Of a DNA stretch of 64,000 nt, positions 18,526-60,906 are shown piece after piece. This stretch comes from Candidatus Pacearchaeota archaeon (GTDB taxonomy: Archaea > Nanobdellota > Nanobdellia > Pacearchaeales > GW2011-AR1). The translations under genes were made by a program, and so were the position numbers. The stretch spans positions 1,185 through 65,184 of the forward strand of contig JACOYJ010000026.1 of NCBI GenBank assembly GCA_016181885.1, given 5' to 3'. Positions within the stretch are counted from its first letter, which is position 1. Each line of letters begins with the position of its first letter. The notes beneath the pieces are model-generated. The model had not been told where the DNA came from, searched no databases, and worked only from the letters and a program-made list of their open reading frames with translations.

Positions 18526-18654
18526 TTTTAATCATGAAAACCGATAACCCAATAACAAAGACAAAAAGCAAATGAGGGCAATAATTTATCATTCATGAAC
18601 TATTGTGGCTTTTTAAGTTTATAAAAATTGCTCATCCAATGAAATGTTAAAATA

Positions 18655-18830
18655 TGTAAAGTAAACCCTCAATCTTGGCATAAAAAATTACTCACTCCTA
18701 TCGTCGTGTATTTTATTATTAACATTAATGGCAAATCTGCGAATGAAATGAGCAGGTAATTATATTTATTCTTTGCAGATTATTTAAGGAATTAAACTGC
18801 AGAATGTTAAGTTATGAACTGGCTTAACAA
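18655..18830 (+). repeat. interspersed noncoding repeat family 1, copy A (core ~176 bp)
   Basis: More than 85% identity to copies at 44051-44226 and 60665-60906 on this strand, and to reverse-complement copies at 38773-38947 and 29263-29642. Internal hairpins (aatctgcgaat/attctttgcagatt; gttaagt/acttaac). Ends about 41 nt before the sufB ATG. Confidence 0.8.
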
Positions 18831-29070: not shown

Positions 29071-29262
29071 AATAAAAAATAAATAGAATTTTTTAATAAA
29101 TCAATCATCTAGAAAATCCACGTCTTCGAGTTCGGCTTCATCTTCTTTCTCATCAACTTCAGTGTATGAATCTTCCTTGTTCATTTTAATCAGGAACCTT
29201 GTTCCTTACCTCATTTTTTGTTAATCCAGATAGATTTTTTTGCTTTTTAAATATTTCTGTAC

Positions 29263-29642
29263 TGTTAAATCAAGTTCATAACTTAACATTCCGTAGTTTA
29301 ATTACTTCATCATTATTGTCGCAAGGAGTTTAATGGAAGAGCATGAAGTTGCAAGATGAAACAATTTCCCTTAGATAAACATTTACCTTAATTATCAAAT
29401 AAAACTAAAGATTGAATGCTAATAAAAACATATTAGGTTAGACGCCCTTCTCTTATCGATGATAAAATGTAATTATTAGTTTAATAATATATTGTTCATG
29501 GATTGCATTTTGTTGGAATATTAATATCCTTTACCATAGCTGCTCATTTCATTCGCAGTTTTGCTGTTAATTATTAATAATAAAATACGCGACAATAGAA
29601 GTGAGTAATTTTTTATGCTAAGATTGCGGATTTACTTTACTG
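29263..29642 (-). repeat. repeat family 1, copy B (reverse orientation; extended ~380 bp with nested insertions)
   Basis: Its ends match the core element. The middle matches the insertion module of copy E and carries a further ~90-bp insertion. Confidence 0.75.
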
Positions 29643-29665
29643 CACAAGAAAAGTTATAAGAAAAA

Positions 29666-38589: not shown

Positions 38590-38772
38590 TGAAAACCTCC
38601 AGCGGGTTTTCTATCCAGCAACCACCGAATCTTTTCTTTGCCTCCGATGGATTCGGACAAAACCTCCGAATTTTTATCAGAATTTTCTTTGCCTCTGATG
38701 AATCCGAATTATTTTTCATTATTTCACCTGTCTGTAAATAGCATAGAAGATATTTAAATGTTTTTAGTTTGT

Positions 38773-38947
38773 GTTAAGTCAAGTTTATAACCTAAAATTC
38801 CATAATTTAATTCTCCCAATAATCTGCAAAGAATAAAGATAATTACCTGCTCATTTAATTCGCAGATTTGTTATTAATGTTAATAATAAAATGCACGACG
38901 AGAGGAGTGAGTAATTTTTTATGTTAAGATTGTGGGTTTACTTTACA
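38773..38947 (-). repeat. repeat family 1, copy C (reverse orientation, core form)
   Basis: Reverse complement of the family-1 core; about 184 nt upstream of the 38589 start. Confidence 0.8.
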
Positions 38948-39752: not shown

Positions 39753-40337
39753 TCATATTTCATCCCTGCAGCTTTCGCACAAAAGAGTTCCTTGGTCGCT
39801 TGTCAGAACATCGTAATTTCCGCAGCCCTCGCAAAGCCCCATTTTTCTTTCCTTTACTTTTTTTAATCTTCTTAATTTGTTTGCTTCTTCCCTTATCTGC
39901 GCAAGTTCATCAAGCTCCGGATAAATCTCCGGCTTGAAATTTAAAATGTCTTTAATTGTTATTATTCCAACCAGCTTGCCTTCGTGGATTACAGGAAGCC
40001 TCTCAAATTTCAATTTTTTCATTTTATCAAGCGCTTCTTTTATAGGAGCAAACGGCTTTATCGTGGCTAATTTTTTAGGGGAAATGTCTATTGCCTTTAT
40101 TACAGATAAATCGCTTTTTGATTTTTTTATCAGCGCCCAAAGAATGTCTTTTTCAGAAATAAACCCGACAAGCCTTTTTTTATCAACGAGAAGAAGGCTT
40201 CCAACACCCTTATTAACCATTTTTTTTGCGCAATCCAAAAGGTTTGTGTCTGGATTAATTATGACAGGATCTCTAGTCATAATGTCTGCGACCAGTATTC
40301 TTTCCATTAAAGACCTGCGGTCTTTAGAACCCCTCAA
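39753..40337 (-). CDS. CBS-domain pair protein with C-terminal zinc ribbon
   Basis: Two CBS repeats (IMTRDPVIINPDT..., ...LPVIHEGKLVGIITIKDIL) and CEGCGN...CESC. Confidence 0.7.
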   Translation of the reverse strand: MRGSKDRRSLMERILVADIMTRDPVIINPDTNLLDCAKKMVNKGVGSLLLVDKKRLVGFISEKDILWALIKKSKSDLSVIKAIDISPKKLATIKPFAPIKEALDKMKKLKFERLPVIHEGKLVGIITIKDILNFKPEIYPELDELAQIREEANKLRRLKKVKERKMGLCEGCGNYDVLTSDQGTLLCESCRDEI

Positions 40338-40619
40338 GCGATTTTCTTTCTATCCCTTGAGGAAAATCTTTATCCCGTAAAACCTCCATAAAAAACCCAG
40401 GTGCTATTTCTATATAAATATTTTCAAATAAGGCAAATGTAGATTAAATGATACAAATGCTTAAAAGGGATTTTAAGGTTAATTTCCTTCCTGCAAATCT
40501 TCAACATGCCTCACCAGATCCTTTGTAAGCCTTGCCATGCTTCTTTATTCAAATTATCAAAAATCGTAGATATTCATGTAATCCTCCACAACAACAATTT
40601 TTAAATACGGCTGAATAGG

Positions 40620-44036: not shown

Positions 44037-44050
44037 TATATTAAAGTATA

Positions 44051-44226
44051 TGTTAAGTAAACCCGCAATCTTAGCATAAAAGATTACTCACTCCTATTGT
44101 CGTGTATTTTATTATTAATAATTATCACAAATCTGCGAATGAAATGAGCAGGTAATTATCTTTATTCTTTGCAGATTATTAAAGGAATTAAACCCTGGAA
44201 TGTTAAGTTATGAACTTGACTTAACA
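44051..44226 (+). repeat. repeat family 1, copy D (core form)
   Basis: Near-identical to copy A; ends 40 nt before the 44267 ATG. Confidence 0.8.
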
Positions 44227-44266
44227 GTATATAAAAGCTTAAATTCTCCATAGGATTGATTTTAAT

Positions 44267-45504: not shown

Positions 45505-46206
45505 ATGGAAAAAGAACTCATAGATAGAGTAAAGAGAGGTTGTGTTGGATATATTGACCTTGGAGGCAATCTGCATAGCTTTGGCTCAGAGAGAACACGG
45601 GCTTTAGTTCCACACTATTATCTAAGCGCAATTCAACCCATTTCTTTGTTTCGGGGATTGGAAAATTCTCTACATACATACTCTGAAAATAAAAGACTTG
45701 AGGAAAATAAAAGACAGAAGAGAAAAAGAGAGAAATTTGACAAAGAAAACTTAGACAATCTTATAATTTATCATGTCCCATTAAATTTGGCTCAATTGGA
45801 GGAAGAGTTTGAAAGAGATATTAATACTTTTGCCTTAATCAAACGGGAAGCTCGGGATAAAGATGTTTATCAAGAGATAATGGGAATACGCAATAAGAAA
45901 GATTATACTGATGCGGTAATGAGAATTTTTCCAGAGCCATTTTTTATTCATCAAAGAGGTTATGTCCCGCCAAGCGACCAAGGTCGAGGATGTAATACCT
46001 ATTTCTTAGTAGTTGGAGATAGAGGACTAACAAGCGAATTCAGCCAAGAAATAGTAAGAGCTCCTTTGCTTATTGCTTTGGCGGTATCAGAATTAATTGG
46101 AGTTGATATAAATGATCCTTGCGTGACCGAGCCATTCTATTCTAAGAGGAAGTTAATTTTCTTTGATCCTACAAGAAATCCAAAAAAGATTTGCCGTCCA
46201 ATTTAA
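45505..46206 (+). CDS. hypothetical protein
   Basis: ORF only (233 aa). Confidence 0.4.
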   Translation: MEKELIDRVKRGCVGYIDLGGNLHSFGSERTRALVPHYYLSAIQPISLFRGLENSLHTYSENKRLEENKRQKRKREKFDKENLDNLIIYHVPLNLAQLEEEFERDINTFALIKREARDKDVYQEIMGIRNKKDYTDAVMRIFPEPFFIHQRGYVPPSDQGRGCNTYFLVVGDRGLTSEFSQEIVRAPLLIALAVSELIGVDINDPCVTEPFYSKRKLIFFDPTRNPKKICRPI

Positions 46207-46321
46207 TCTCCTTCCAATAGTTTTACCTTGAAAGTCTTTAGCTTATAAATAAGGGCTTATTCTTGACTGGGAAATCAGAAAAAACAATAAAAGAAAATAA
46301 GATCGTTATGAAAAGTAAGGA

Positions 46322-46615
46322 TTAATAATTAGACTCTTGCATATATTCTGTAACTATGCTGATTATTTTCTGAATTGTGATGCTACAATTCTTAAAGTAT
46401 ATTCTTTCTAAAACATTTATCCCCCTCTGCCTAATTACATCACTAATCAAAGCATGTATAAAGGATTGTGTTGCTGATTCCACCCCAGAAAAATCCAGGA
46501 CTATCTTATTTTCATCACCTATGTATTTTAATATTTCGTTTAATCTTATATCTCTTGCAATATCTTTATTTCCTGCAAACGCTCCTGTTTTATCAAATAT
46601 CCTTATCTCTTTCAT
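46322..46615 (-). CDS. STAS-fold protein (DUF4325-like), anti-sigma-antagonist-like
   Basis: About 97 aa; IVLDFSGVESATQSFIHALI pattern typical of STAS/DUF4325. 4-nt overlap with the upstream ATPase gene. Confidence 0.5.
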   Translation of the reverse strand: MKEIRIFDKTGAFAGNKDIARDIRLNEILKYIGDENKIVLDFSGVESATQSFIHALISDVIRQRGINVLERIYFKNCSITIQKIISIVTEYMQESNY

Positions 46616-47580
46616 ACAAACCTCGGATGTTTATATTTTTCTTTTATTTTTTGTTTTCTTGCTTTTTGATAAAAATCTCTAATTAAGTCTAGAAGAGCGT
46701 TAAAGTCAGCATGCTCATCTAAGCATAAATCTATTCCAACTACTGTACCTGACCAATCTGGATAGTTATTATTATATGAAGCATGGTCTTTAATTGGGTC
46801 CGCAACAAGTCTTACTCCTTTATGTTTTGGATTTTTTAGAAGTTTATACATCCCCTCTCCGCTATATATCATAAAGAAATCTCTATCTACTTTTGCAAGA
46901 GATTTTATAAAGAACAACCCGGCTCCAGCATTACTTTCTGTTCCACCAATTTTTGTTGTAGTTCCAGTAATCCCGGGAGTTAAAGCCAACAAAATTGCCT
47001 CGATATCTGTTTTCGGACTATAAGATTGACTTATTGATTTCTTTACCCCTATTCCGCAATCTGCAACTCCGATTCTTATGGTATTACTCTTTTTATAATA
47101 TTGTGCGCATACTATTGCCCCGTCGTCTGAATTAGCATGTTCAAAAACATTTCTTACCAACTCAAAAATAATATATCTAATTGGTTCAACTTTTTTTGGT
47201 TCAGAGTGTAATAAAGGCACCATCTCAGTAATAAATCTATCAAGTTGTTTTGAGTCCTTTATCACCTGTATTGTTACAAATCGCCCTGCAGATTCATGTT
47301 CTCTAATCTTAATCTCTGACTCTAGTCCAAGTATTTTGAATAGGCCCATTCTTTCAAAATAATGCTTAGATATAGCAGTTGGCTTATAAAATTTTATCTC
47401 TTTCCCCTCTCGTCTCATCTTTAAACCAATTGCGCAAACCATTGACAATACAACTGGATGAACTGAGACCCATTTTTGATGTGAGCTTATCTCTAAAACA
47501 TCTGTCTCCAATACATCAAACGCTCTCAGGAAAGGGTCTATATTTCCCAGCCATACACTATTGGGCAAATGAATTCTCAT
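46612..47580 (-). CDS. GHKL (histidine-kinase-like) ATPase, RsbW/anti-sigma-kinase-like, with an N-terminal extra domain
   Basis: N-box ELVRNVFEHAN, G1 GVADCGIGV, G2 GAGLFFIKSL. Confidence 0.6.
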   Translation of the reverse strand: MRIHLPNSVWLGNIDPFLRAFDVLETDVLEISSHQKWVSVHPVVLSMVCAIGLKMRREGKEIKFYKPTAISKHYFERMGLFKILGLESEIKIREHESAGRFVTIQVIKDSKQLDRFITEMVPLLHSEPKKVEPIRYIIFELVRNVFEHANSDDGAIVCAQYYKKSNTIRIGVADCGIGVKKSISQSYSPKTDIEAILLALTPGITGTTTKIGGTESNAGAGLFFIKSLAKVDRDFFMIYSGEGMYKLLKNPKHKGVRLVADPIKDHASYNNNYPDWSGTVVGIDLCLDEHADFNALLDLIRDFYQKARKQKIKEKYKHPRFV

Positions 47581-47802
47581 ACATTCTCTAGATTTAAGGT
47601 ATTTATAAATGCTTCTAAAATACCGAGAATCCCGGTAAAATAAGTAAAACCCTGAAATCTAGGTTAGTTTGTCCTTTACATAAAAGAGGATATTTCAACT
47701 TATTTTAATCGAGACTTTTCGTGCAACGCCTCGTCTATTAACTATTTTTAAGTAATCCTTAATCTTTAAAAAGACTTTTTTCCCTAGCTATTTTATATAA
47801 AA

Positions 47803-49137
47803 ATGAGCGACATTGAAGATATTCTAAGAAGAACAAAAGAGGACAAGGTTGATTTCGTTCAGCTATGGTTTACAGATATTCATGGAGCCCATAAGTCTGT
47901 TGATATTCTTCGAGATAAACTAAACGAATCCTTGAGCAAGGGAACATGGTTTGACGGCAGTTCAATTGAGGGGTTCACAAGAATTAAAGAGTCTGACATG
48001 TTTTTGAGGCCTGATACTGGAACATATGCTGTGCTTCCATGGAGCCCAAAAGATGAAAGAACTGCAAGATTAATCTGCGATGTTTACTCTCCAGATGGGA
48101 ATCCATTTGTTGGAGACCCAAGATACATTCTTAAAAGAGCTTTGGGAAAGGCGAGGGAAAAAGGCTTTAAGTACAATGTTGGCCCTGAATTGGAATTTTT
48201 TTTGTTTAAGAAAAACGGCAATTTGGAGCCGGTTTTGCATGACGATGCGGGCTATTTCGATGCTGCGCCAAGTGATTTGGCAATCGGAGTAAGAAATGAA
48301 ATAGTTAAAGCTATAGGGGCATTGGGATTAGAAGTGGAGATGTCGCACCACGAAGTTGCTCCTGGCCAGCACGAAATTGATTTTAAGTATGGATATGCTT
48401 TGACTCAGGCAGACAGGGCAATAACCTTTAAACATGCTGTGAAATCAATTGCAGACAAACGTGGATTAATTGCTTCTTTTATGCCTAAGCCGGTTTTCGG
48501 GGAGAATGGTTCTGGAATGCACGTTCACCAAAGTCTTTTTGATGCAGATGGGGAAAAAAACTTGTTTTATGATGCTAAGGGCGAATATAAATTAAGCGAT
48601 ACAGCAAGGGCTTTTATTGCCGGGCAGTTAGAGCACATTTCAGAAATTTCTTTGGTTACTGCGCCAAAAGTTAATAGTTATAAAAGGCTTGTTCCTGGTT
48701 TTGAAGCGCCTGTTTATATATGCTGGGCGCAAAAAAATAGATCTGCTTTGATAAGGATTCCTCATTATAGCCCTGGCAGAGAAAAATCTACAAGGGCAGA
48801 ACTTAGATGTCCGGACCCCTCATGCAACCCCTATCTTGCTTTTGCAGTAATGCTCGGCGCTGGAATGGATGGAATTGAAAGAAAATTAGAGCCTCCAAAA
48901 CCAGTCGAAGAAGATGTTTATGAGTTTAACGAAAAACAATTGGCAGAGCATGGAATAGGAACTCTGCCAGAATCTTTGGGAGAAGCAATACATCATTTCA
49001 AAAACAGCAAATTAGCCAGAGATGTTCTTGGGGAGTATACTTTTGAGAAATATTTGGAAGCAAAAAGAGAAGAGTATGATGAGTACAGGCTTCAGGTTAC
49101 GCCTTGGGAAATAAAGAAATATTTGGAAAGTTCCTAA
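47803..49137 (+). CDS. glnA: glutamine synthetase type I
   Basis: Full-length GlnA motifs (GPELEFFLF, MPKPVFGENGSGMHVHQSL, AGQLEH). Confidence 0.9.
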   Translation: MSDIEDILRRTKEDKVDFVQLWFTDIHGAHKSVDILRDKLNESLSKGTWFDGSSIEGFTRIKESDMFLRPDTGTYAVLPWSPKDERTARLICDVYSPDGNPFVGDPRYILKRALGKAREKGFKYNVGPELEFFLFKKNGNLEPVLHDDAGYFDAAPSDLAIGVRNEIVKAIGALGLEVEMSHHEVAPGQHEIDFKYGYALTQADRAITFKHAVKSIADKRGLIASFMPKPVFGENGSGMHVHQSLFDADGEKNLFYDAKGEYKLSDTARAFIAGQLEHISEISLVTAPKVNSYKRLVPGFEAPVYICWAQKNRSALIRIPHYSPGREKSTRAELRCPDPSCNPYLAFAVMLGAGMDGIERKLEPPKPVEEDVYEFNEKQLAEHGIGTLPESLGEAIHHFKNSKLARDVLGEYTFEKYLEAKREEYDEYRLQVTPWEIKKYLESS

Positions 49138-49229: not shown

Positions 49230-49760
49230 ATGAAAAAAGCTATTTTTGTGGTAATTATCTTTGTTCTTAGTATTTATTCTATAGTGGCTTTATACCCGCA
49301 GCCGAAAATTACTCCAATTGGAGACGGAATAGACTTGGTATTTATTCCTCCCTGGCAAACTGCAATAAATGCGTTGTGGGATGAAATTTTCAATTTAAAA
49401 AATCAAGTAGCTAATTTATTTACAAAAACTGATGATTTGCAACAGCAAATTGATAATATTGAATTAATTCCTGGCCCACAAGGAGAGCCAGGACCAATAG
49501 GACCACAAGGGCTCCAAGGTGAAGAAGGAAAACCTGGACCAACAAGAAATTTGACAACAATTACTGCTGCGAGTGATGGTCCGGAGGTTTGTTGTCCAGA
49601 AGGTTATGTTAGAACTGGTTGTAGTAATACGGCTCTTAGTGGTGTAATAAATACTCCCTTAGGGGTTATGCCAACAGAAGATTTGTGTTGTCGTAATTCT
49701 GACGGCGTTAACCGTTATGGTTTGCGCACTTATGCAGTTTGTTTAAAATACACTGATTAA
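49230..49760 (+). CDS. secreted protein with a collagen-like Gly-X-Y repeat and a Cys-rich C-terminal domain
   Basis: N-terminal TM/signal, coiled region, GPQGEPGPIGPQGLQGEEGKPGP (7 GXY triplets), then 6 Cys. Confidence 0.55.
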   Translation: MKKAIFVVIIFVLSIYSIVALYPQPKITPIGDGIDLVFIPPWQTAINALWDEIFNLKNQVANLFTKTDDLQQQIDNIELIPGPQGEPGPIGPQGLQGEEGKPGPTRNLTTITAASDGPEVCCPEGYVRTGCSNTALSGVINTPLGVMPTEDLCCRNSDGVNRYGLRTYAVCLKYTD

Positions 49761-51397: not shown

Positions 51398-51469
51398 TGC
51401 GCAAGCCGGGAATTGAACCCGGGCCACCTCGTTGGCAACGAGGCGTACTGCCACTATACGACTAGCGCT
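51398..51469 (-). tRNA. tRNA-Gly(GCC), intron-less
   Basis: Reverse complement reads GCGCTAG-TC-GTAT-AGTGGCAG-TAC-G-CCTCG-TTGCCAA-CGAGG-TGGC-CCGGG-TTCAATT-CCCGG-CTTGCGC-A. Anticodon GCC. One U-U mismatch in the acceptor stem. Confidence 0.7.
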
Positions 51470-53150: not shown

Positions 53151-54146
53151 TTATATGAATGAAATGCTCTCAAGCAACAGCCCGGAAATTACGCCCTTTA
53201 TTATAAAGAACAAAGTGTAGCTTATTGCGAGCAGCGGGATAAAGAATTTTATCCCTTCTTTTGCCTCACCCTTATTTACAAGCCCGATTACGAAGCAGGA
53301 AATAAAATCAGTTACGGCTATGAATATCAATGAAAAGTAAATCACGAAGTTTAGGGATATTGAAACTCTGCTGAAAGCCAAAGGAAGCGATGATGTAGCA
53401 GCGGTTGTTGTTTCCGGCAGGTTTGCCGAGAGCCCCAGGACTATCTCAACAAGGACAGAGCTGAGGGCGAAAAGAACAGGTGCGCCTACGCCAACTGCAA
53501 AGAATATAAAAATTACATACATCAAAATTGTCGACCTTGATTTTTTTTCTATTATTTCTTTCTCTTTCATGTTTGAAGAAGTCTGCTCAAGCAAGTCAGA
53601 GATGTTCCCGCCGGCTTTCAATCCAGAAATTATGAGCATTATGACTTTTGATATTTTTTCAGAGTCTATCCTCTCGGCCATTTTCTTGAATGCAAAAATT
53701 ATATCCTGGCCTGTTGTTATTTCTTTTCCGGTTTTTAGAATTTCTTTATCCAAGGGGTCAAATTCCGGGCGGGCTGACAGCAAGAATGCGCGGTCTATAG
53801 TTATTCCTGACCTTAGATTGCTGGCCATAAGGGAGATTACATCCGGAAATAAAGACTCCATTTTTTTTATTCTTTCGTTTGCCTTCAAGCTTATTTTAAA
53901 ATAAAAGAAAGTGTAAAGTATGGCAAATACAAGAAGAAACAATAAGAAGCTCTTTTTTGTTATAATCAATATCGACAGTGAAAGCGTTGCGAATATCGTG
54001 CATATAAAAAATATTTTATTGTGGTAGTCTTCCGGCGAAGTGGATATTCCTGCATTTTTTATGTTCTTTGCATAATCGTCCCTGAATCTTCTTGGATAGA
54101 ATTTTAGCGTGTTCATTAAAAACCTACGATTTTTAGAATCCCTCAA
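53151..54146 (-). CDS. FlaJ/TadC-family pilus assembly membrane protein
   Basis: T2SS-F-like domain with 3-4 TM helices and a cytoplasmic domain; operon with FlaI. Confidence 0.6.
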   Translation of the reverse strand: MRDSKNRRFLMNTLKFYPRRFRDDYAKNIKNAGISTSPEDYHNKIFFICTIFATLSLSILIITKKSFLLFLLVFAILYTFFYFKISLKANERIKKMESLFPDVISLMASNLRSGITIDRAFLLSARPEFDPLDKEILKTGKEITTGQDIIFAFKKMAERIDSEKISKVIMLIISGLKAGGNISDLLEQTSSNMKEKEIIEKKSRSTILMYVIFIFFAVGVGAPVLFALSSVLVEIVLGLSANLPETTTAATSSLPLAFSRVSISLNFVIYFSLIFIAVTDFISCFVIGLVNKGEAKEGIKFFIPLLAISYTLFFIIKGVISGLLLESISFI

Positions 54147-55074
54147 GCGATTTTCTTTTTATTACTCGATGAAAATCTTTATCCCGTAAAAACCTACGGT
54201 TTTTATAATCTATTAATCCCAAGAACATTACCTGCATAAATACAACCACAACAAAAACTAAGACAAAAATGAGCTTCAAAATAATCTCGTTCACGTTTAA
54301 TAAAGATGAGATAATTATCAGGAAAGTTATTCCAAGGGAAGGAAGGACAACAGCGATAAGCATATAAAACATGATTAAGGGGTTCAGCTTGCTTCCGTAG
54401 CTTTGAATCTGAATTGTCTGCTCCTCGCTTAAGTTTTTTATCCCCTCTCTGATTACTATGGCCATATCGCTTCCTGACCTCATTCCATTGCTGAGCTGCC
54501 ACAAGACCCTTCTGAAATACTCAGATGTATTCAACTTAGCATATTTTTCAATAGCCTCAATCTGAGAAATGCCGGAGTTCATCTCCTTGGTTATCTTCTT
54601 GAATTCTGCGCTCACTTCGCCGTAATCCGACGTTGCTATATTAGCCAAGATTTCATAAATTGAGACGCCGGAATTTAGCTGAACCATCATGTCTTGAAGC
54701 ACCGGAATCAAATTTTTCTCAATATTCCTTTTCTTGTTCAAAACAAATATTCTTGGGTAATTTCTCTGGTTGAAATATATAAAGAACGAAACAGCTATTG
54801 CTGTGCCTATGCCGAATGTAAAAAAATTGCTAATTTTAAAAATCCCCAAAATAGAAGTTAAAATCACTGAAAAAATCAGTATGTTAAATAAAAATCTCCG
54901 ATAGCATACTGCAAGATACTGCCTGGCAGTCATGTCCACCCCTATTCCCTGCAGATATTCGCTAAGCTTTAGCTTTCTATGGCCTGTCAGCCTCTCAAAT
55001 CTTTTTGCTTTTCTTTTCAGCGCCTCTACATTAGAAATAGTGAACGGTATCTTAAATTCCATATCATTCCTCAT
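54133..55074 (-). CDS. FlaJ/TadB-family pilus assembly membrane protein (second paralog)
   Basis: Same architecture as the upstream gene; 14-nt overlap. Confidence 0.6.
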   Translation of the reverse strand: MRNDMEFKIPFTISNVEALKRKAKRFERLTGHRKLKLSEYLQGIGVDMTARQYLAVCYRRFLFNILIFSVILTSILGIFKISNFFTFGIGTAIAVSFFIYFNQRNYPRIFVLNKKRNIEKNLIPVLQDMMVQLNSGVSIYEILANIATSDYGEVSAEFKKITKEMNSGISQIEAIEKYAKLNTSEYFRRVLWQLSNGMRSGSDMAIVIREGIKNLSEEQTIQIQSYGSKLNPLIMFYMLIAVVLPSLGITFLIIISSLLNVNEIILKLIFVLVFVVVVFMQVMFLGLIDYKNRRFLRDKDFHRVIKRKSLEGF

Positions 55075-60521: not shown

Positions 60522-60664
60522 TCTATTGCATCAAGAATAAAGTTTAAAAATCCTGAAGCACATGTCTTTAAGTAGAGGGCGAGACTAGTTTTCGTTCGTT
60601 TGCGTTAGCAATTGATGGGGCATTTTCGGATGTCCCACCTCTACACTATTCTCTCTTTTATAGC

Positions 60665-60906
60665 TGTAAAGTAAACCAGCAATCTTAACGTAAAAAATTA
60701 CTCACTCCTATCGTCGTGTATTTTATTATTAACATTAATGGCAAGTCTGCGAATGAAATGAACAATATATTATTAAACTAATAATTACCTTTTATCATCA
60801 ATAATTGTTTCATCTTGCAACTTTATGCTCTTCCATTAAACTCCTTGCGATAATAATGTTGAAGGAATTAAACTGCGGATATTGAATTATAAACTTGACT
60901 TAACAA
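60665..60906 (+). repeat. repeat family 1, copy E (extended form, alternative middle module)
   Basis: The 5' ~95 nt and 3' ~50 nt match the core. The middle is replaced by a module also present in copy B. Confidence 0.75.

What the first reader, a model, noticed from the sequence alone, without database searches (positions are those of the whole stretch)
46322..47580. GHKL ATPase + STAS(DUF4325) two-gene module in an archaeal context
A 322-aa protein with clear N, G1 and G2 boxes of the histidine-kinase-like (RsbW/anti-sigma serine-kinase) ATPase fold lies 4 nt before a 97-aa STAS-fold (DUF4325-like) protein. In bacteria such pairs form sigma-factor partner-switching modules. Archaea have no sigma factors, so the target here must be something else. 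The pair sits in an accessory-looking stretch with repeat copy D, unknown small genes and a transglutaminase-like protein. This is a candidate regulatory or conflict system with no obvious described counterpart.
Basis: partly seen in the sequence, partly recalled or inferred. Interest (0 to 1): 0.6.

Follow-up and report, generated by a model that had tools for sequence, protein, structure and literature searches.

The report
Stand-alone STAS-kinase plus STAS-substrate gene pair
This DPANN archaeon carries a compact two-gene switch, a kinase-type ATPase and its small STAS-fold partner, that is a stripped-down relative of the bacterial CapK/CapS and VapK/VapS DNA-damage-sensing immune regulators described in 2026, here with no attached effector and shared by tiny-celled archaea, CPR bacteria and tailed phages.

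Summary
Two overlapping minus-strand genes encode a 322-aa GHKL (Bergerat-fold) protein and a 97-aa DUF4325/STAS-fold protein. The pairing is kept in 77 of 77 testable loci elsewhere.

A described counterpart now exists: CapK/CapS and VapK/VapS/VapC (Chambers et al., EMBO J 2026).
- The 322-aa protein is homologous to E. coli VapK across both its N-terminal STAS-like domain and its GHKL domain (hhalign 98.75%, E 1.5e-16).
- VapS is itself a DUF4325 protein.

The family is not specific to archaea. About 44 of 80 loci are DPANN or other archaeal bins and about 36 are CPR or other bacterial bins. It also sits as a moron in tailed-phage contigs.

This clade differs from the published systems:
- There is no HTH on the kinase, and no wHTH or inhibitory helix on the STAS protein.
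- There is no VapC or any other conserved third gene.
- The kinase has a clade-specific basic C-terminal tail ending in x-F-x-COOH.
- Invariant Gln occupies the VapS phospho-serine column, flanked by invariant Thr49 and Ser51.

Most likely it is a minimal, portable kinase–substrate phospho-switch whose output is unlinked or intrinsic. I rate it a new variant of a known kind, of moderate interest.

The parts
47601..47616 (-). Putative archaeal promoter of the pair: purine-rich BRE-like AGAAGCA followed by the TATA box TTTATAAAT (47609-47601), centred about 25 nt upstream of the ATG. This implies a leaderless or near-leaderless mRNA.
   Evidence: Read directly from the sequence. The 222-nt intergenic region is shared divergently with glnA (47803..49137 +). 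This is inference from consensus, not tested.
46612..47580 (-). K gene: 322-aa STAS-GHKL protein, a VapK/CapK-type putative Ser/Thr kinase. It is 100% identical to NCBI HYT23_03570 from a Candidatus Pacearchaeota archaeon.
47260..47580 (-). K residues 1-107: divergent STAS-like N-terminal domain (beta-alpha-beta-alpha topology). W37 is invariant in close relatives and P42 is nearly invariant across the family, both at the beta3-alpha2 loop. By homology this is the ligand (ssDNA) sensing domain.
   Evidence: AF2 secondary structure. The hhalign match to VapK starts at residue 23. Family-profile positions 4-93 align to SpoIIAA 15-106 at E 0.5-1.3. The phage homologue MPV1_51 hits PF01740 STAS above gathering, and 4-6 of 53 family members hit STAS_2/STAS.
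46711..47253 (-). K residues 110-290: Bergerat-fold GHKL domain. It contains the N box ELVRNVFEHA (E140, N144), G1 D174-C-G-I-G178, a Gly/Thr-rich ATP lid (202-217, disordered in the model), G2 N217-A-G-A-G221-L and a G3-like G278-T279.
   Evidence: motifs intact in 78/80 loci.
46615..46710 (-). K residues 291-322: clade-specific C-terminal extension. It consists of an amphipathic helix, a Lys/Arg-rich stretch and the terminal HPRFV-COOH, with the penultimate Phe conserved.
   Evidence: helix 291-315; a tail of the form [KRG][PA]xF[ITV] in the 80 loci, median 9 K/R in the last 25 residues, absent from VapK, the MPV1 and Alicyclobacillus homologues and the fusions; the phage copy ends KEPKFL.
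46322..46615 (-). S gene: 97-aa bare DUF4325 (STAS-fold) protein, the putative kinase substrate or switch subunit. Its start codon overlaps the K stop codon (ATGA), implying translational coupling.
46463..46471 (-). Codons for T49-Q50-S51 of S, at the N-cap of STAS helix alpha2. This is the candidate phospho-acceptor site. The VapS Ser48 column aligns to Q50, and T49 is the favoured acceptor.
   Evidence: Invariant in 54 homologues and TQS in 72/74 loci. Helix alpha2 starts at residue 50.
46278..46300 (-). Oligo-T-rich tract 22-45 nt after the S stop codon. This is a putative archaeal terminator ending the two-gene unit before the convergent gene 45505..46206(+).
   Evidence: Read directly from the sequence. 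Inference only.

Best explanation
The pair is a stand-alone ('bare') member of the CapK/VapK-CapS/VapS class of GHKL-kinase/STAS-substrate phospho-switches.

Shown:
- K consists of a divergent STAS-like N-domain (1-107), a Bergerat-fold ATP-binding domain with every nucleotide-binding motif intact (110-290), and a clade-specific basic C-terminal tail.
- S is a single DUF4325 STAS domain.
- The two genes are translationally coupled, have their own promoter-like and terminator-like signals, always travel together, and are fused into one polypeptide in some relatives.
- K is homologous to VapK over both domains, and VapS belongs to the same Pfam family as S.

Inferred by homology to CapK/VapK:
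- K is inactive until a nucleic-acid ligand binds between its STAS and GHKL domains. In CapK this ligand is ssDNA of about 20 nt.
- Active K then transfers the ATP gamma-phosphate to the N-cap of helix alpha2 of S, with Thr49 favoured and Ser51 possible.
- Phosphorylation changes what S binds.

Inferred from distribution:
- No effector is linked in any of 80 genomes, and the cassette functions in DPANN archaea, in CPR bacteria and as a phage moron.
- The output must therefore be an unlinked host target common to both domains of life, or be intrinsic to K/S. The conserved basic C-terminal tail of K is the obvious candidate element.
- A stress or virus-sensing (conflict) role is the most likely biology.
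For: - Domain and motif evidence.
- Homology to the characterised system: BLASTP of K vs E. coli VapK gives E 1e-12. The family profile vs VapK gives hhalign 98.75%, E 1.5e-16, over 240 columns covering residues 23-289. VapS homologues are all PF14213. The S profile hits PDB 9z7o VapS at E 0.016 and gives hhalign E 3e-4 over 86 columns.
- Published mechanism of CapK/CapS and VapKSC: PMC13373217.
- Functional unity: 77/77 adjacency, mostly with ATGA overlap; 9/10 long representatives are N-dom-GHKL-DUF4325 fusions; one PADLOC 'DrmA' profile matches K and S collinearly.
- Autonomy: no third conserved ORF, large or small, and own promoter/terminator signals.
- Mobility and conflict flavour: the same clade is inserted between tail genes of tailed-phage contigs. 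Related pairs lie in the lysogeny region of Marinitoga phage MPV1 next to a DUF4041-T5orf172 gene, in a Francisella prophage and beside IS elements on an Alicyclobacillus plasmid.
- Ser/Thr at the alpha2 N-cap is invariant.
Against: - No biochemical data exist for this clade.
- The column strictly homologous to VapS Ser48 / SpoIIAA Ser58 is an invariant Gln. Phosphorylation therefore requires a one-residue shift of the acceptor, or S may be a non-phosphorylated partner.
- The column of the ssDNA-stacking aromatic (VapK F54) is Ser39 here. Only a nearby Trp37 is conserved.
- S-vs-VapS similarity is weak outside the shared Pfam family (hhalign probability 39%).
- Immediate neighbours are mostly housekeeping genes with few defence-model hits, unlike capKS (348/443 upstream of immune operons) or vapKSC (36% near immune genes).
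- Foldseek ranks Topo VI-B slightly above SpoIIAB, so an ATPase rather than a kinase cannot be excluded from structure alone.
- The output of the switch is unknown.
Confidence: 0.6

Rival explanations
1. Self-contained toxin-antitoxin or abortive-infection module. In this reading K itself is the effector: a kinase or ATPase acting on a target universal to archaea and bacteria, possibly guided by its basic C-terminal tail. S is a stoichiometric pseudo-substrate inhibitor, not a relay to another effector.
For: - It is a strictly two-gene cassette with no linked effector in 80 loci.
- It is portable across domains of life and carried by phages and plasmids.
- Translational coupling is present.
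- The canonical phospho-acceptor column is Gln, as expected for a pseudo-substrate.
- K has an extra conserved C-terminal element that the pure regulator VapK lacks.
- Natural K-S fusions would then be cis-inhibited effectors.
Against: - No GHKL-fold toxin is known.
- In the characterised relatives K is only a regulator and toxicity resides in VapC or downstream operons.
- T49 and S51 are invariant, which argues for a real acceptor site.
- There is no enrichment of defence genes around the cassette.
Confidence: 0.2
2. K is a GHL-type ATPase clamp (Topo VI-B / MORC / MutL-like) that works on nucleic acid rather than a protein kinase. S would be a regulatory STAS subunit, as in the N-terminal module of some DrmA-like helicases.
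For: - The best Foldseek PDB hits are Topo VI-B (E 3e-4).
- The N box has the E-x-x-x-N arrangement common to GHL ATPases.
- K has a long Gly/Thr-rich lid and a basic C-terminal tail.
- K and S match collinearly the N-terminus of a PADLOC DrmA model.
Against: - No transducer domain is present, and neither is any other second domain of GHL ATPases.
- The best sequence-profile hits are HATPase_c_2 (RsbW-type), histidine kinases and SpoIIAB.
- There is clear homology to VapK and CapK, and CapK kinase activity has been shown in vitro.
Confidence: 0.1
3. A genuine anti-sigma / anti-anti-sigma partner-switching pair that controls the sigma70-like proteins reported in DPANN archaea (and sigma factors in CPR bacteria).
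For: - Castelle et al. 2021 found sigma70-type proteins in DPANN, notably Woesearchaeota, and no anti-sigma factors.
- K's catalytic domain is SpoIIAB/RsbW-like and S is STAS-like.
- An Alicyclobacillus plasmid pair lies just downstream of a sigma region-4-like gene.
Against: - A validated RpoD region 2-4 probe finds no sigma gene in the 64-kb window or within 6 kb of the pair in 80 loci.
- No conserved third gene of any kind accompanies the pair, so there is no cis-linked phosphatase or sigma factor.
- K is 322 aa with extra domains, unlike anti-sigma kinases of about 140-150 aa.
- The clade occurs inside phage structural modules.
- The nearest characterised relatives do not act on sigma factors.
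Confidence: 0.05
4. An ordinary two-component sensor histidine kinase fragment with an unrelated small neighbour.
For: Some databases name homologues 'sensor histidine kinase'. The weak best PDB sequence hits are HK catalytic domains.
Against: - There is no HisKA/DHp domain and no conserved phospho-His.
- The N-domain is STAS-like.
- The partner is DUF4325, not a response regulator.
- The 322-aa length and the pairing are conserved in 77/77 loci.
Confidence: 0.01

Closest known systems
VapK-VapS-VapC (vapKSC) kinase-regulated toxin-antitoxin defence system (Chambers et al., EMBO J 2026, PMC13373217)
   Same: - K has the VapK architecture: a STAS-like domain plus a GHKL kinase domain with no HTH. 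It is demonstrably homologous over both domains (hhalign 98.75%).
- S and VapS are both PF14213/DUF4325 STAS proteins encoded immediately downstream of the kinase.
- Both have Ser/Thr at the N-cap of STAS helix alpha2.
   Different: - No VapC/PIN gene or any third gene is present.
- S (97 aa) lacks the VapS C-terminal inhibitory helix (residues 94-116).
- The VapS Ser48 column is Gln50 here, flanked by Thr49 and Ser51.
- The VapK Phe54 column is Ser39, with Trp37 nearby.
- K has an extra basic C-terminal tail ending x-F-x that VapK lacks.
- K shares only 27% identity with VapK, within the GHKL domain.
- The hosts are DPANN archaea, CPR bacteria and phages rather than the diverse cultivated bacteria in which vapKSC was found.
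CapK-CapS transcriptional controller of immune operons (same paper)
   Same: - The core logic is the same: a STAS-GHKL kinase always followed by its STAS-domain substrate (443/443 there, 77/77 here).
- The active-site Asn and ATP motifs are conserved.
- The predicted kinase-substrate geometry is SpoIIAB-SpoIIAA-like.
   Different: - CapK has an N-terminal HTH, and CapS has a C-terminal wHTH and is a DNA-binding repressor. Both are absent here.
- capKS sits upstream of immune operons (348/443). Here the downstream genes are unrelated, often convergent, and mostly housekeeping.
SpoIIAB-SpoIIAA / RsbW-RsbV sigma-factor partner-switching modules
   Same: The kinase has a Bergerat fold, with Foldseek TM 0.6-0.7 normalised to SpoIIAB. 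The partner has a STAS fold. The candidate acceptor lies at the alpha2 N-cap.
   Different: - K is about twice as long, with a cis STAS domain and a C-terminal tail.
- There is no DSSG motif.
- No third gene of any kind is conserved near the pair, so no sigma factor or PP2C phosphatase is linked.
- The pair occurs in archaea and in phage structural modules.
Natural K-S fusion proteins and the N-terminal module of a PADLOC 'DrmA' (DISARM helicase) profile
   Same: The domain order is the same: N-domain, GHKL, DUF4325. This is seen in single polypeptides of 397-451 aa and at positions 48-248 and 332-389 of a 1750-position DrmA model. Several fusions carry the same T-Q-S-F-x-H-A motif.
   Different: - In the window the module is split into two genes.
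- It is not attached to a helicase.
- It carries the C-terminal tail that the fusions lack.

Membership tests
CapK/VapK-type STAS-GHKL kinases (PMC13373217) | STAS-like domain immediately N-terminal to a GHKL domain in one polypeptide | tested here: met
   The AF2 model shows a beta-alpha-beta-alpha N-domain (1-107) packed on the GHKL domain (pTM 0.86). The hhalign match to VapK covers residues 23-289. The profile aligns to SpoIIAA at E about 0.5-1. PF01740 is hit above gathering in the phage homologue, and 4-6 of 53 members hit STAS/STAS_2.
CapK/VapK-type STAS-GHKL kinases (PMC13373217) | Intact GHKL ATP-binding motifs, including the active-site Asn | tested here: met
   N144, D174, G176, G178, G219, G221 and G278 are invariant across 53 sequences at 20-47% identity. 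The motifs are present in 78/80 loci.
CapK/VapK-type STAS-GHKL kinases (PMC13373217) | Gene immediately followed by a STAS-domain substrate gene | tested here: met
   77/77 testable loci, usually with a 4-nt overlap.
CapK/VapK-type STAS-GHKL kinases (PMC13373217) | Conserved aromatic residue in the cis-STAS loop that stacks on ssDNA (CapK W68 / VapK F54) | tested here: inconclusive
   The VapK 'tycrFlrP' Phe becomes F54 if the start is 5 codons upstream. It aligns to Ser39. Trp37, two residues earlier on the same loop, is invariant in close relatives, and many distant members have F/Y/W/H in the F54 column.
CapK/VapK-type STAS-GHKL kinases (PMC13373217) | ssDNA-activated Ser/Thr kinase activity toward the partner | not testable with these tools
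   This needs a kinase assay, or at least an AF3 complex with ATP and ssDNA.
CapK proper | [quoted passage not shown] | tested here: not met
   The STAS-like domain starts at residue 1 and there is no HTH hit.
CapS | STAS domain followed by a C-terminal winged-HTH DNA-binding domain | tested here: not met
   S is 97 aa and the whole length is one STAS fold. There is no HTH hit.
VapS / VapKSC | DUF4325-type STAS domain | tested here: met
   PF14213 at 40.7 bits. All 14 VapS homologues are PF14213. The profile hits PDB 9z7o VapS at E 0.016, and hhalign gives E 3e-4 over 86 columns.
VapS / VapKSC | Absolutely conserved Ser/Thr on STAS helix alpha2 (VapS S48, CapS S54) | tested here: inconclusive
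   The aligned column is invariant Gln50. Invariant Thr49 (-1, the N-cap) and Ser51 (+1) flank it.
VapS / VapKSC | C-terminal inhibitory helix on the STAS protein (VapS 94-116) | tested here: not met
   S ends at residue 97, right after the last STAS helix (79-94).
VapS / VapKSC | VapC (PIN) toxin gene directly downstream | tested here: not met
   In the window the next gene is convergent, 233 aa, with no Pfam hit. No third gene is shared by more than 4 of 80 loci.
Sigma-factor partner-switching module (SpoIIAB/SpoIIAA, RsbW/RsbV) | Cognate sigma factor, and usually a PP2C phosphatase, encoded with the pair | tested here: not met
   A validated RpoD probe finds no sigma gene in the window or within 6 kb in 80 loci. 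No third gene of any kind is conserved near the pair, so there is no conserved linked phosphatase.
Sigma-factor partner-switching module (SpoIIAB/SpoIIAA, RsbW/RsbV) | Single-domain anti-sigma kinase of about 140-150 aa, and a STAS antagonist with a DSSG phospho-serine motif | tested here: not met
   K is 322 aa with three regions. S reads A-T-Q-S-F instead of D-S-S-G. NCBIfam spIIAB scores 15.6 against a cutoff of 135.
Two-component sensor histidine kinase | HisKA/DHp dimerisation domain with a phospho-accepting His, and a response-regulator partner | tested here: not met
   There is no HisKA hit in the window protein or in any of 53 family members. No His is conserved across the family N-domain. 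The partner is DUF4325.
DISARM DrmA | Superfamily-2 helicase core associated with DrmB/DrmC | tested here: not met
   Only positions 48-248 and 332-389 of a 1750-position PADLOC model match. No helicase is present in K or S or conserved nearby.

The most novel reading that the evidence does not exclude
The bare K+S clade may be a new, minimal and fully self-contained stress or virus-sensing system that works in both archaea and bacteria. In this reading, nucleic-acid-activated K and its STAS partner need no dedicated effector gene. K, through its conserved basic C-terminal tail with a terminal Phe, or released or phosphorylated S, would act directly on a universally conserved cellular target such as the translation or replication machinery or nucleic acid. 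This would make it the first GHKL-based abortive-infection or growth-arrest switch. It would also be a rare defence-type module shared by DPANN, CPR and their phages.
Probability: 0.2. Interest if true: 0.75.

Novelty: new variant of a known kind. Interest (0 to 1): 0.5.

Why it matters
CapK/CapS and VapKSC showed in 2026 that a STAS-GHKL kinase and a STAS substrate form a modular DNA-damage sensor bolted onto different bacterial immune outputs.

This window shows the same sensor core stripped of every known output. It is strongly conserved at 52-76% identity across archaeal and bacterial bins, carried by tailed phages, and present in the two radiations of ultra-small, host-dependent cells (DPANN and CPR), which have few recognised defence or stress-signalling systems.

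If the pair is active, it extends this signalling logic to archaea and poses a clean question: what does a kinase-STAS switch control when nothing is attached to it?

The clade-specific C-terminal tail and the shifted acceptor motif (T-Q-S) give concrete handles for experiments. The finding also corrects annotation, since homologues are currently labelled 'sensor histidine kinase', 'anti-sigma regulatory factor' or 'hypothetical'.

Tried and rejected
- **ATPase N-domain as a second DUF4325:** hhalign of the N-domain against the S alignment gave probability 0.4%. I rejected this at sequence level. The domain is STAS-like by other evidence, but it is not DUF4325.
- **Defence-island association:** Pfam and PADLOC scans of 145 immediate neighbours gave a housekeeping mix and only scattered generic helicase, ATPase or REase model hits. 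There is no support.
- **Hidden third gene:** clustering of all ORFs >=70 aa within 6 kb and of ORFs of 20-75 aa within 600 nt found nothing shared by more than 4 loci. The one recurrent small ORF (weakly AbrB/MazE-like) is absent from the window.
- **Sigma-factor linkage:** no hit with a validated RpoD probe.
- **PADLOC PDC-M65A hit:** it covers only 28 residues of the N box, so I did not treat it as membership.
- **Dispersed repeat ('copy D') as part of the module:** rejected, because it lies 2.1 kb away and is not conserved with the pair.
- **Uninformative searches:** the plasmid tblastn gave only two distant hits. The whole-word literature search for 'VapS' was swamped by unrelated acronyms.
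Full report
**1. What is in the sequence**

The window carries two minus-strand ORFs, 46612..47580 (322 aa, 'K') and 46322..46615 (97 aa, 'S'). The S start codon overlaps the K stop codon (ATGA).

Upstream of K lies a 222-nt intergenic region shared divergently with glnA (47803..49137 +). It contains a TATA-like TTTATAAAT about 25 nt before the ATG. Oligo-T tracts follow the S stop, before a convergent unknown gene. The pair therefore looks like an autonomous, archaeal-style transcription unit.

K is 100% identical to a hypothetical protein of a Candidatus Pacearchaeota archaeon, and S to a 'STAS-like domain-containing protein' of the same organism. The window also encodes a thermosome and other archaeal genes.

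**2. Domain calls**

- **S.** It hits PF14213 (DUF4325) at 40.7 bits against a gathering cutoff of 23. AlphaFold2 gives a pLDDT 94.6 model with beta-beta-alpha-beta-alpha-beta-alpha topology. Nearly all the top Foldseek PDB hits are STAS domains (SLC26/SulP STAS, RsbS, SpoIIAA), but E-values are weak at 0.07-0.6 and TM is 0.5-0.57.
- **K sequence.** Its Pfam hits are just under gathering: HATPase_c_2 at 25.8 vs 27.4 bits. However, E140/N144 (N box), D174xG176xG178 (G1) and G219xG221 (G2) are invariant in 59 close homologues. N144, D174, G176, G178, G219, G221 and G278 remain invariant in a 53-member family at 20-47% identity.
- **K structure.** The AF2 model (pLDDT 82.7, pTM 0.86) has three parts: an N-domain (1-107), a Bergerat fold (110-290) and a long C-terminal helix (291-315). 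Foldseek places the core nearest Topo VI-B (E 3e-4) and SpoIIAB (E 2e-3, TM 0.6-0.7 normalised to SpoIIAB).
- **Not a histidine kinase.** No HisKA/DHp domain is detected in K or in any of 53 relatives.

**3. The N-domain of K is a divergent STAS domain**

- Its secondary-structure order fits STAS.
- Family-profile positions 4-93 align end-to-end with SpoIIAA 15-106, at E 0.5-1.3.
- The homologous 321-aa protein of Marinitoga phage MPV1 hits PF01740 (STAS) above gathering in its N-terminal 90 residues.
- Between 4 and 6 of 53 family members individually hit STAS_2/STAS.
- It is not detectably related to DUF4325 itself.

**4. Conservation of the pair**

K has 2549 database relatives and S has 1220. 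The top hits are all about 322 aa and about 96 aa respectively.

In one-genome-per-species GTDB contigs, 145 relatives were found and 80 loci fetched, at 52-76% identity. A DUF4325 gene lies directly downstream in 77 loci. The other three are truncated by the contig end.

Clustering all ORFs >=70 aa within 6 kb gives only two conserved clusters, K and S. The next best cluster occurs in 4 loci. ORFs of 20-75 aa within 600 nt are not conserved either.

Nine of ten 397-451-aa representatives are natural fusions of N-domain, GHKL and DUF4325. One 1750-position PADLOC 'DrmA' profile matches K at positions 48-248 and S at positions 332-389, collinearly. K and S are therefore one functional unit that can be fused or attached to other machinery.

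**5. Distribution**

By record title, about 44 of the 80 loci are archaeal. These are Woese-, Pace-, Nano-, Aenigm-, Micr- and Iainarchaeota, plus some bins labelled Methanosarcinales or Thermoplasmat*.

About 36 are bacterial: Peregrini-/Peribacteria, Roizman-, Davies- and Saccharibacteria, Patescibacteria, Omnitrophota and Elusimicrobia, plus some bins labelled Gammaproteobacteria or Planctomycetales. The bin labels are as deposited and I did not verify them.

In a neighbour-joining tree the two domains form largely coherent blocks, and only 4 of 79 nearest neighbours cross domains. This points to a few inter-domain transfers rather than constant exchange.

Flanking genes are a housekeeping miscellany (gyrB, recA, ABC transporters and others), with only scattered generic PADLOC hits.

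The clade is also virus-borne. Three IMG/VR contigs carry a 44%-identical K plus S. In the contigs examined (L087/L089), the pair is inserted between head-tail genes and the tail chaperone/tape-measure genes of a tailed phage with terminase, portal and capsid genes.

More distant bare pairs occur in three other mobile contexts:
- the lysogeny region of Marinitoga phage MPV1, between CI/methylase/DUF4041-T5orf172 and the integrase;
- a Francisella prophage (PMC7924643);
- beside IS elements on Alicyclobacillus plasmid pAACI02.

**6. The described counterpart**

Chambers et al. (EMBO J 2026, PMC13373217) characterised two related systems.

- **CapK/CapS.** CapK has HTH-STAS-GHKL domains and CapS has STAS-wHTH. 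ssDNA of about 20 nt binds between the STAS and GHKL domains of CapK (W68, K237, K239). This activates phosphorylation of CapS Ser54 on STAS helix alpha2, dissolves the repressor dimer and de-represses the downstream immune operons.
- **VapKSC.** VapK (STAS-GHKL, no HTH) is proposed to phosphorylate VapS (STAS plus a C-terminal inhibitory helix, Ser48) and so release the PIN toxin VapC. The operon protects against phage Bas42.

I retrieved VapS homologues using the fragment shown for PDB 9z7o. All 14 are PF14213. From an E. coli operon (VapK 297 aa, VapS 116 aa, VapC 203 aa) I ran direct comparisons:
- K vs VapK by BLASTP gives E 1e-12 at 27% identity over the GHKL domain.
- The K-family profile vs VapK gives hhalign 98.75%, E 1.5e-16, over 240 columns covering residues 23-289, which spans both domains.
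- The S profile vs VapS gives E 3e-4 over 86 columns.

The pair therefore belongs to the CapK/VapK-CapS/VapS superfamily. An earlier survey had already noted a VapC-like PIN subgroup 'transcriptionally coupled to DUF4325' (PMC5499597).

**7. How this clade differs from the published systems**

1. There is no HTH on K, no wHTH or C-terminal helix on S, and no VapC or other conserved partner.
2. All 80 K proteins carry a C-terminal extension: a helix, a Lys/Arg-rich stretch (median 9 K/R in the last 25 residues) and a terminal [KRG][PA]xF[ITV]-COOH. The phage copy retains it (KEPKFL). It is absent from VapK, from the MPV1 and Alicyclobacillus proteins, and from the fusions.
3. The column homologous to VapS Ser48 is invariant Gln50. 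Thr49 and Ser51 flank it and are invariant, with TQS in 72 of 74 loci.
   - Across DUF4325 subfamilies the site reads A-S-P-F (VapS), T-Q/H-S-F, T-T-G-F, S-S-S-F or P-S-S-F.
   - Every member keeps a Ser or Thr within one residue of the site.
   - Thr at -1 is the only hydroxyl shared by the TQS, THS and TTG variants, and it is the N-cap of helix alpha2 (the helix starts at residue 50). I therefore favour Thr49 as the acceptor.
4. The VapK Phe54 column is Ser39. (F54 numbering is inferred from an in-frame Met 5 codons upstream of the called start.) An invariant Trp37 lies two residues earlier on the same loop.

**8. Mechanism**

*Shown:* an ATP-binding Bergerat-fold protein with a cis STAS domain, obligatorily co-encoded and sometimes fused with a DUF4325 STAS protein, and homologous to a proven kinase-substrate pair.

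*Inferred:* ligand-gated (probably nucleic-acid-gated) phosphorylation of S at the alpha2 N-cap, which switches S's interactions.

*Inferred from distribution:* the cassette has no linked effector yet persists in archaea, CPR bacteria and phages. Its output is therefore either an unlinked target common to both domains of life or intrinsic to K/S. The conserved basic tail of K is the prime unexplained element.

*Rivals:*
- K is itself a toxin and S a pseudo-substrate antitoxin. This fits the Gln at the canonical site and the two-gene autonomy.
- K is a GHL-type ATPase rather than a kinase, as suggested by the top Topo VI-B fold hits.
- The pair is a true anti-sigma module for the sigma70-like proteins reported in DPANN (PMC8204110). 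This lacks any cis linkage: a validated RpoD probe found no sigma gene in the window or in the 80 loci.
- K is a histidine-kinase fragment. This is refuted by the architecture.

**9. Verdict**

The domain calls, the pairing and the 'not a sigma switch, probably regulatory or conflict' reading stand. The claim of no described counterpart is overtaken by the 2026 CapK/CapS-VapKSC work. The archaeal framing is also too narrow.

The pair fails the membership tests for CapK/CapS proper and for VapKSC, because the HTH, wHTH, inhibitory helix and VapC are all missing. It clearly belongs to the same kinase-STAS superfamily and most likely works in the same way.

I found no paper describing the bare two-gene clade, its C-terminal tail, or its presence in DPANN, CPR or phages. 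I classify it as a new variant of a known kind, with interest 0.5.

Noticed in passing
window 18652-18820, 29246-29643 (fragments), 38762-38947, 44048-44236, 60662-60830: A dispersed repeat of about 170-190 nt occurs in both orientations, in at least five full or partial copies. Direct copies are 69-91% identical to the reference, and inverted arms are 84-96% complementary. No Rfam family matches. It lies between two small unknown ORFs and is not linked to the K+S pair.
   Followed up: partly
window 40305-40382 and 54114-54191: A 78-nt direct repeat (87% identical) covers the 5' ends and upstream leaders of two otherwise different minus-strand genes, 39753..40337 (starts MRGSKDRRSLMERI) and 53151..54146 (starts MRDSKNRRFLMNTL). 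This suggests a shared 5' leader or N-terminal cassette.
   Followed up: no
L001 7256-7429(-), L003 3842-4015(-), L005 7257-7400(-), L006 5883-6059(-): In four of the window's closer archaeal relatives, a 47-58-aa ORF lies convergently right after the S gene. It has weak, sub-threshold similarity to AbrB/MazE (PF04014, E 0.005-0.05). There is no counterpart in the window.
   Followed up: partly
L081 (Marinitoga phage MPV1) 2603-3718: Directly upstream of the phage K+S pair is a DUF4041 + T5orf172/MUG113 protein annotated as 'chromosome segregation ATPase'. It lies between the CI repressor/methyltransferase and the serine integrase. Its position in the lysogeny region would fit a prophage-encoded defence gene, but I did not test that.
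   Followed up: no
L089 1508-4051 (IMG/VR phage contig): The 847-aa portal protein is fused to a Mu-F-like head-morphogenesis domain. It ends in a weak, sub-threshold match to a CdiA C-terminal toxin domain (PF18451, E 4.7e-4).
   Followed up: no
window 49230-49760 (+): This 176-aa protein has an N-terminal hydrophobic segment, a coiled region, a short collagen-like G-x-y run (GPQGEPGPIGPQGLQGEEGKPGP) and a Cys-rich C-terminus. It is an unusual probable surface protein for a DPANN archaeon.
   Followed up: no
loci L010, L011, L016, L017, L019, L034, L046, L054, L058, L059, L062 and others: Several co-assembly MAGs are titled 'uncultured Methanosarcinales', 'Gammaproteobacteria' or 'Planctomycetales'. 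They carry K+S copies that nest among DPANN or CPR sequences in the tree. The deposited taxonomic labels of these bins may be unreliable.
   Followed up: no
window 51398-51468 (-): This is the single Rfam hit in the window, a tRNA gene (62 bits).
   Followed up: no
PADLOC model PDLC02567 ('DrmA', 1750 positions) vs window K and S: One DISARM DrmA profile contains an N-terminal GHKL + DUF4325 module that matches K and S collinearly. This implies that some DrmA-like helicases carry this sensor module in cis. I could not retrieve any such protein to confirm it.
   Followed up: partly
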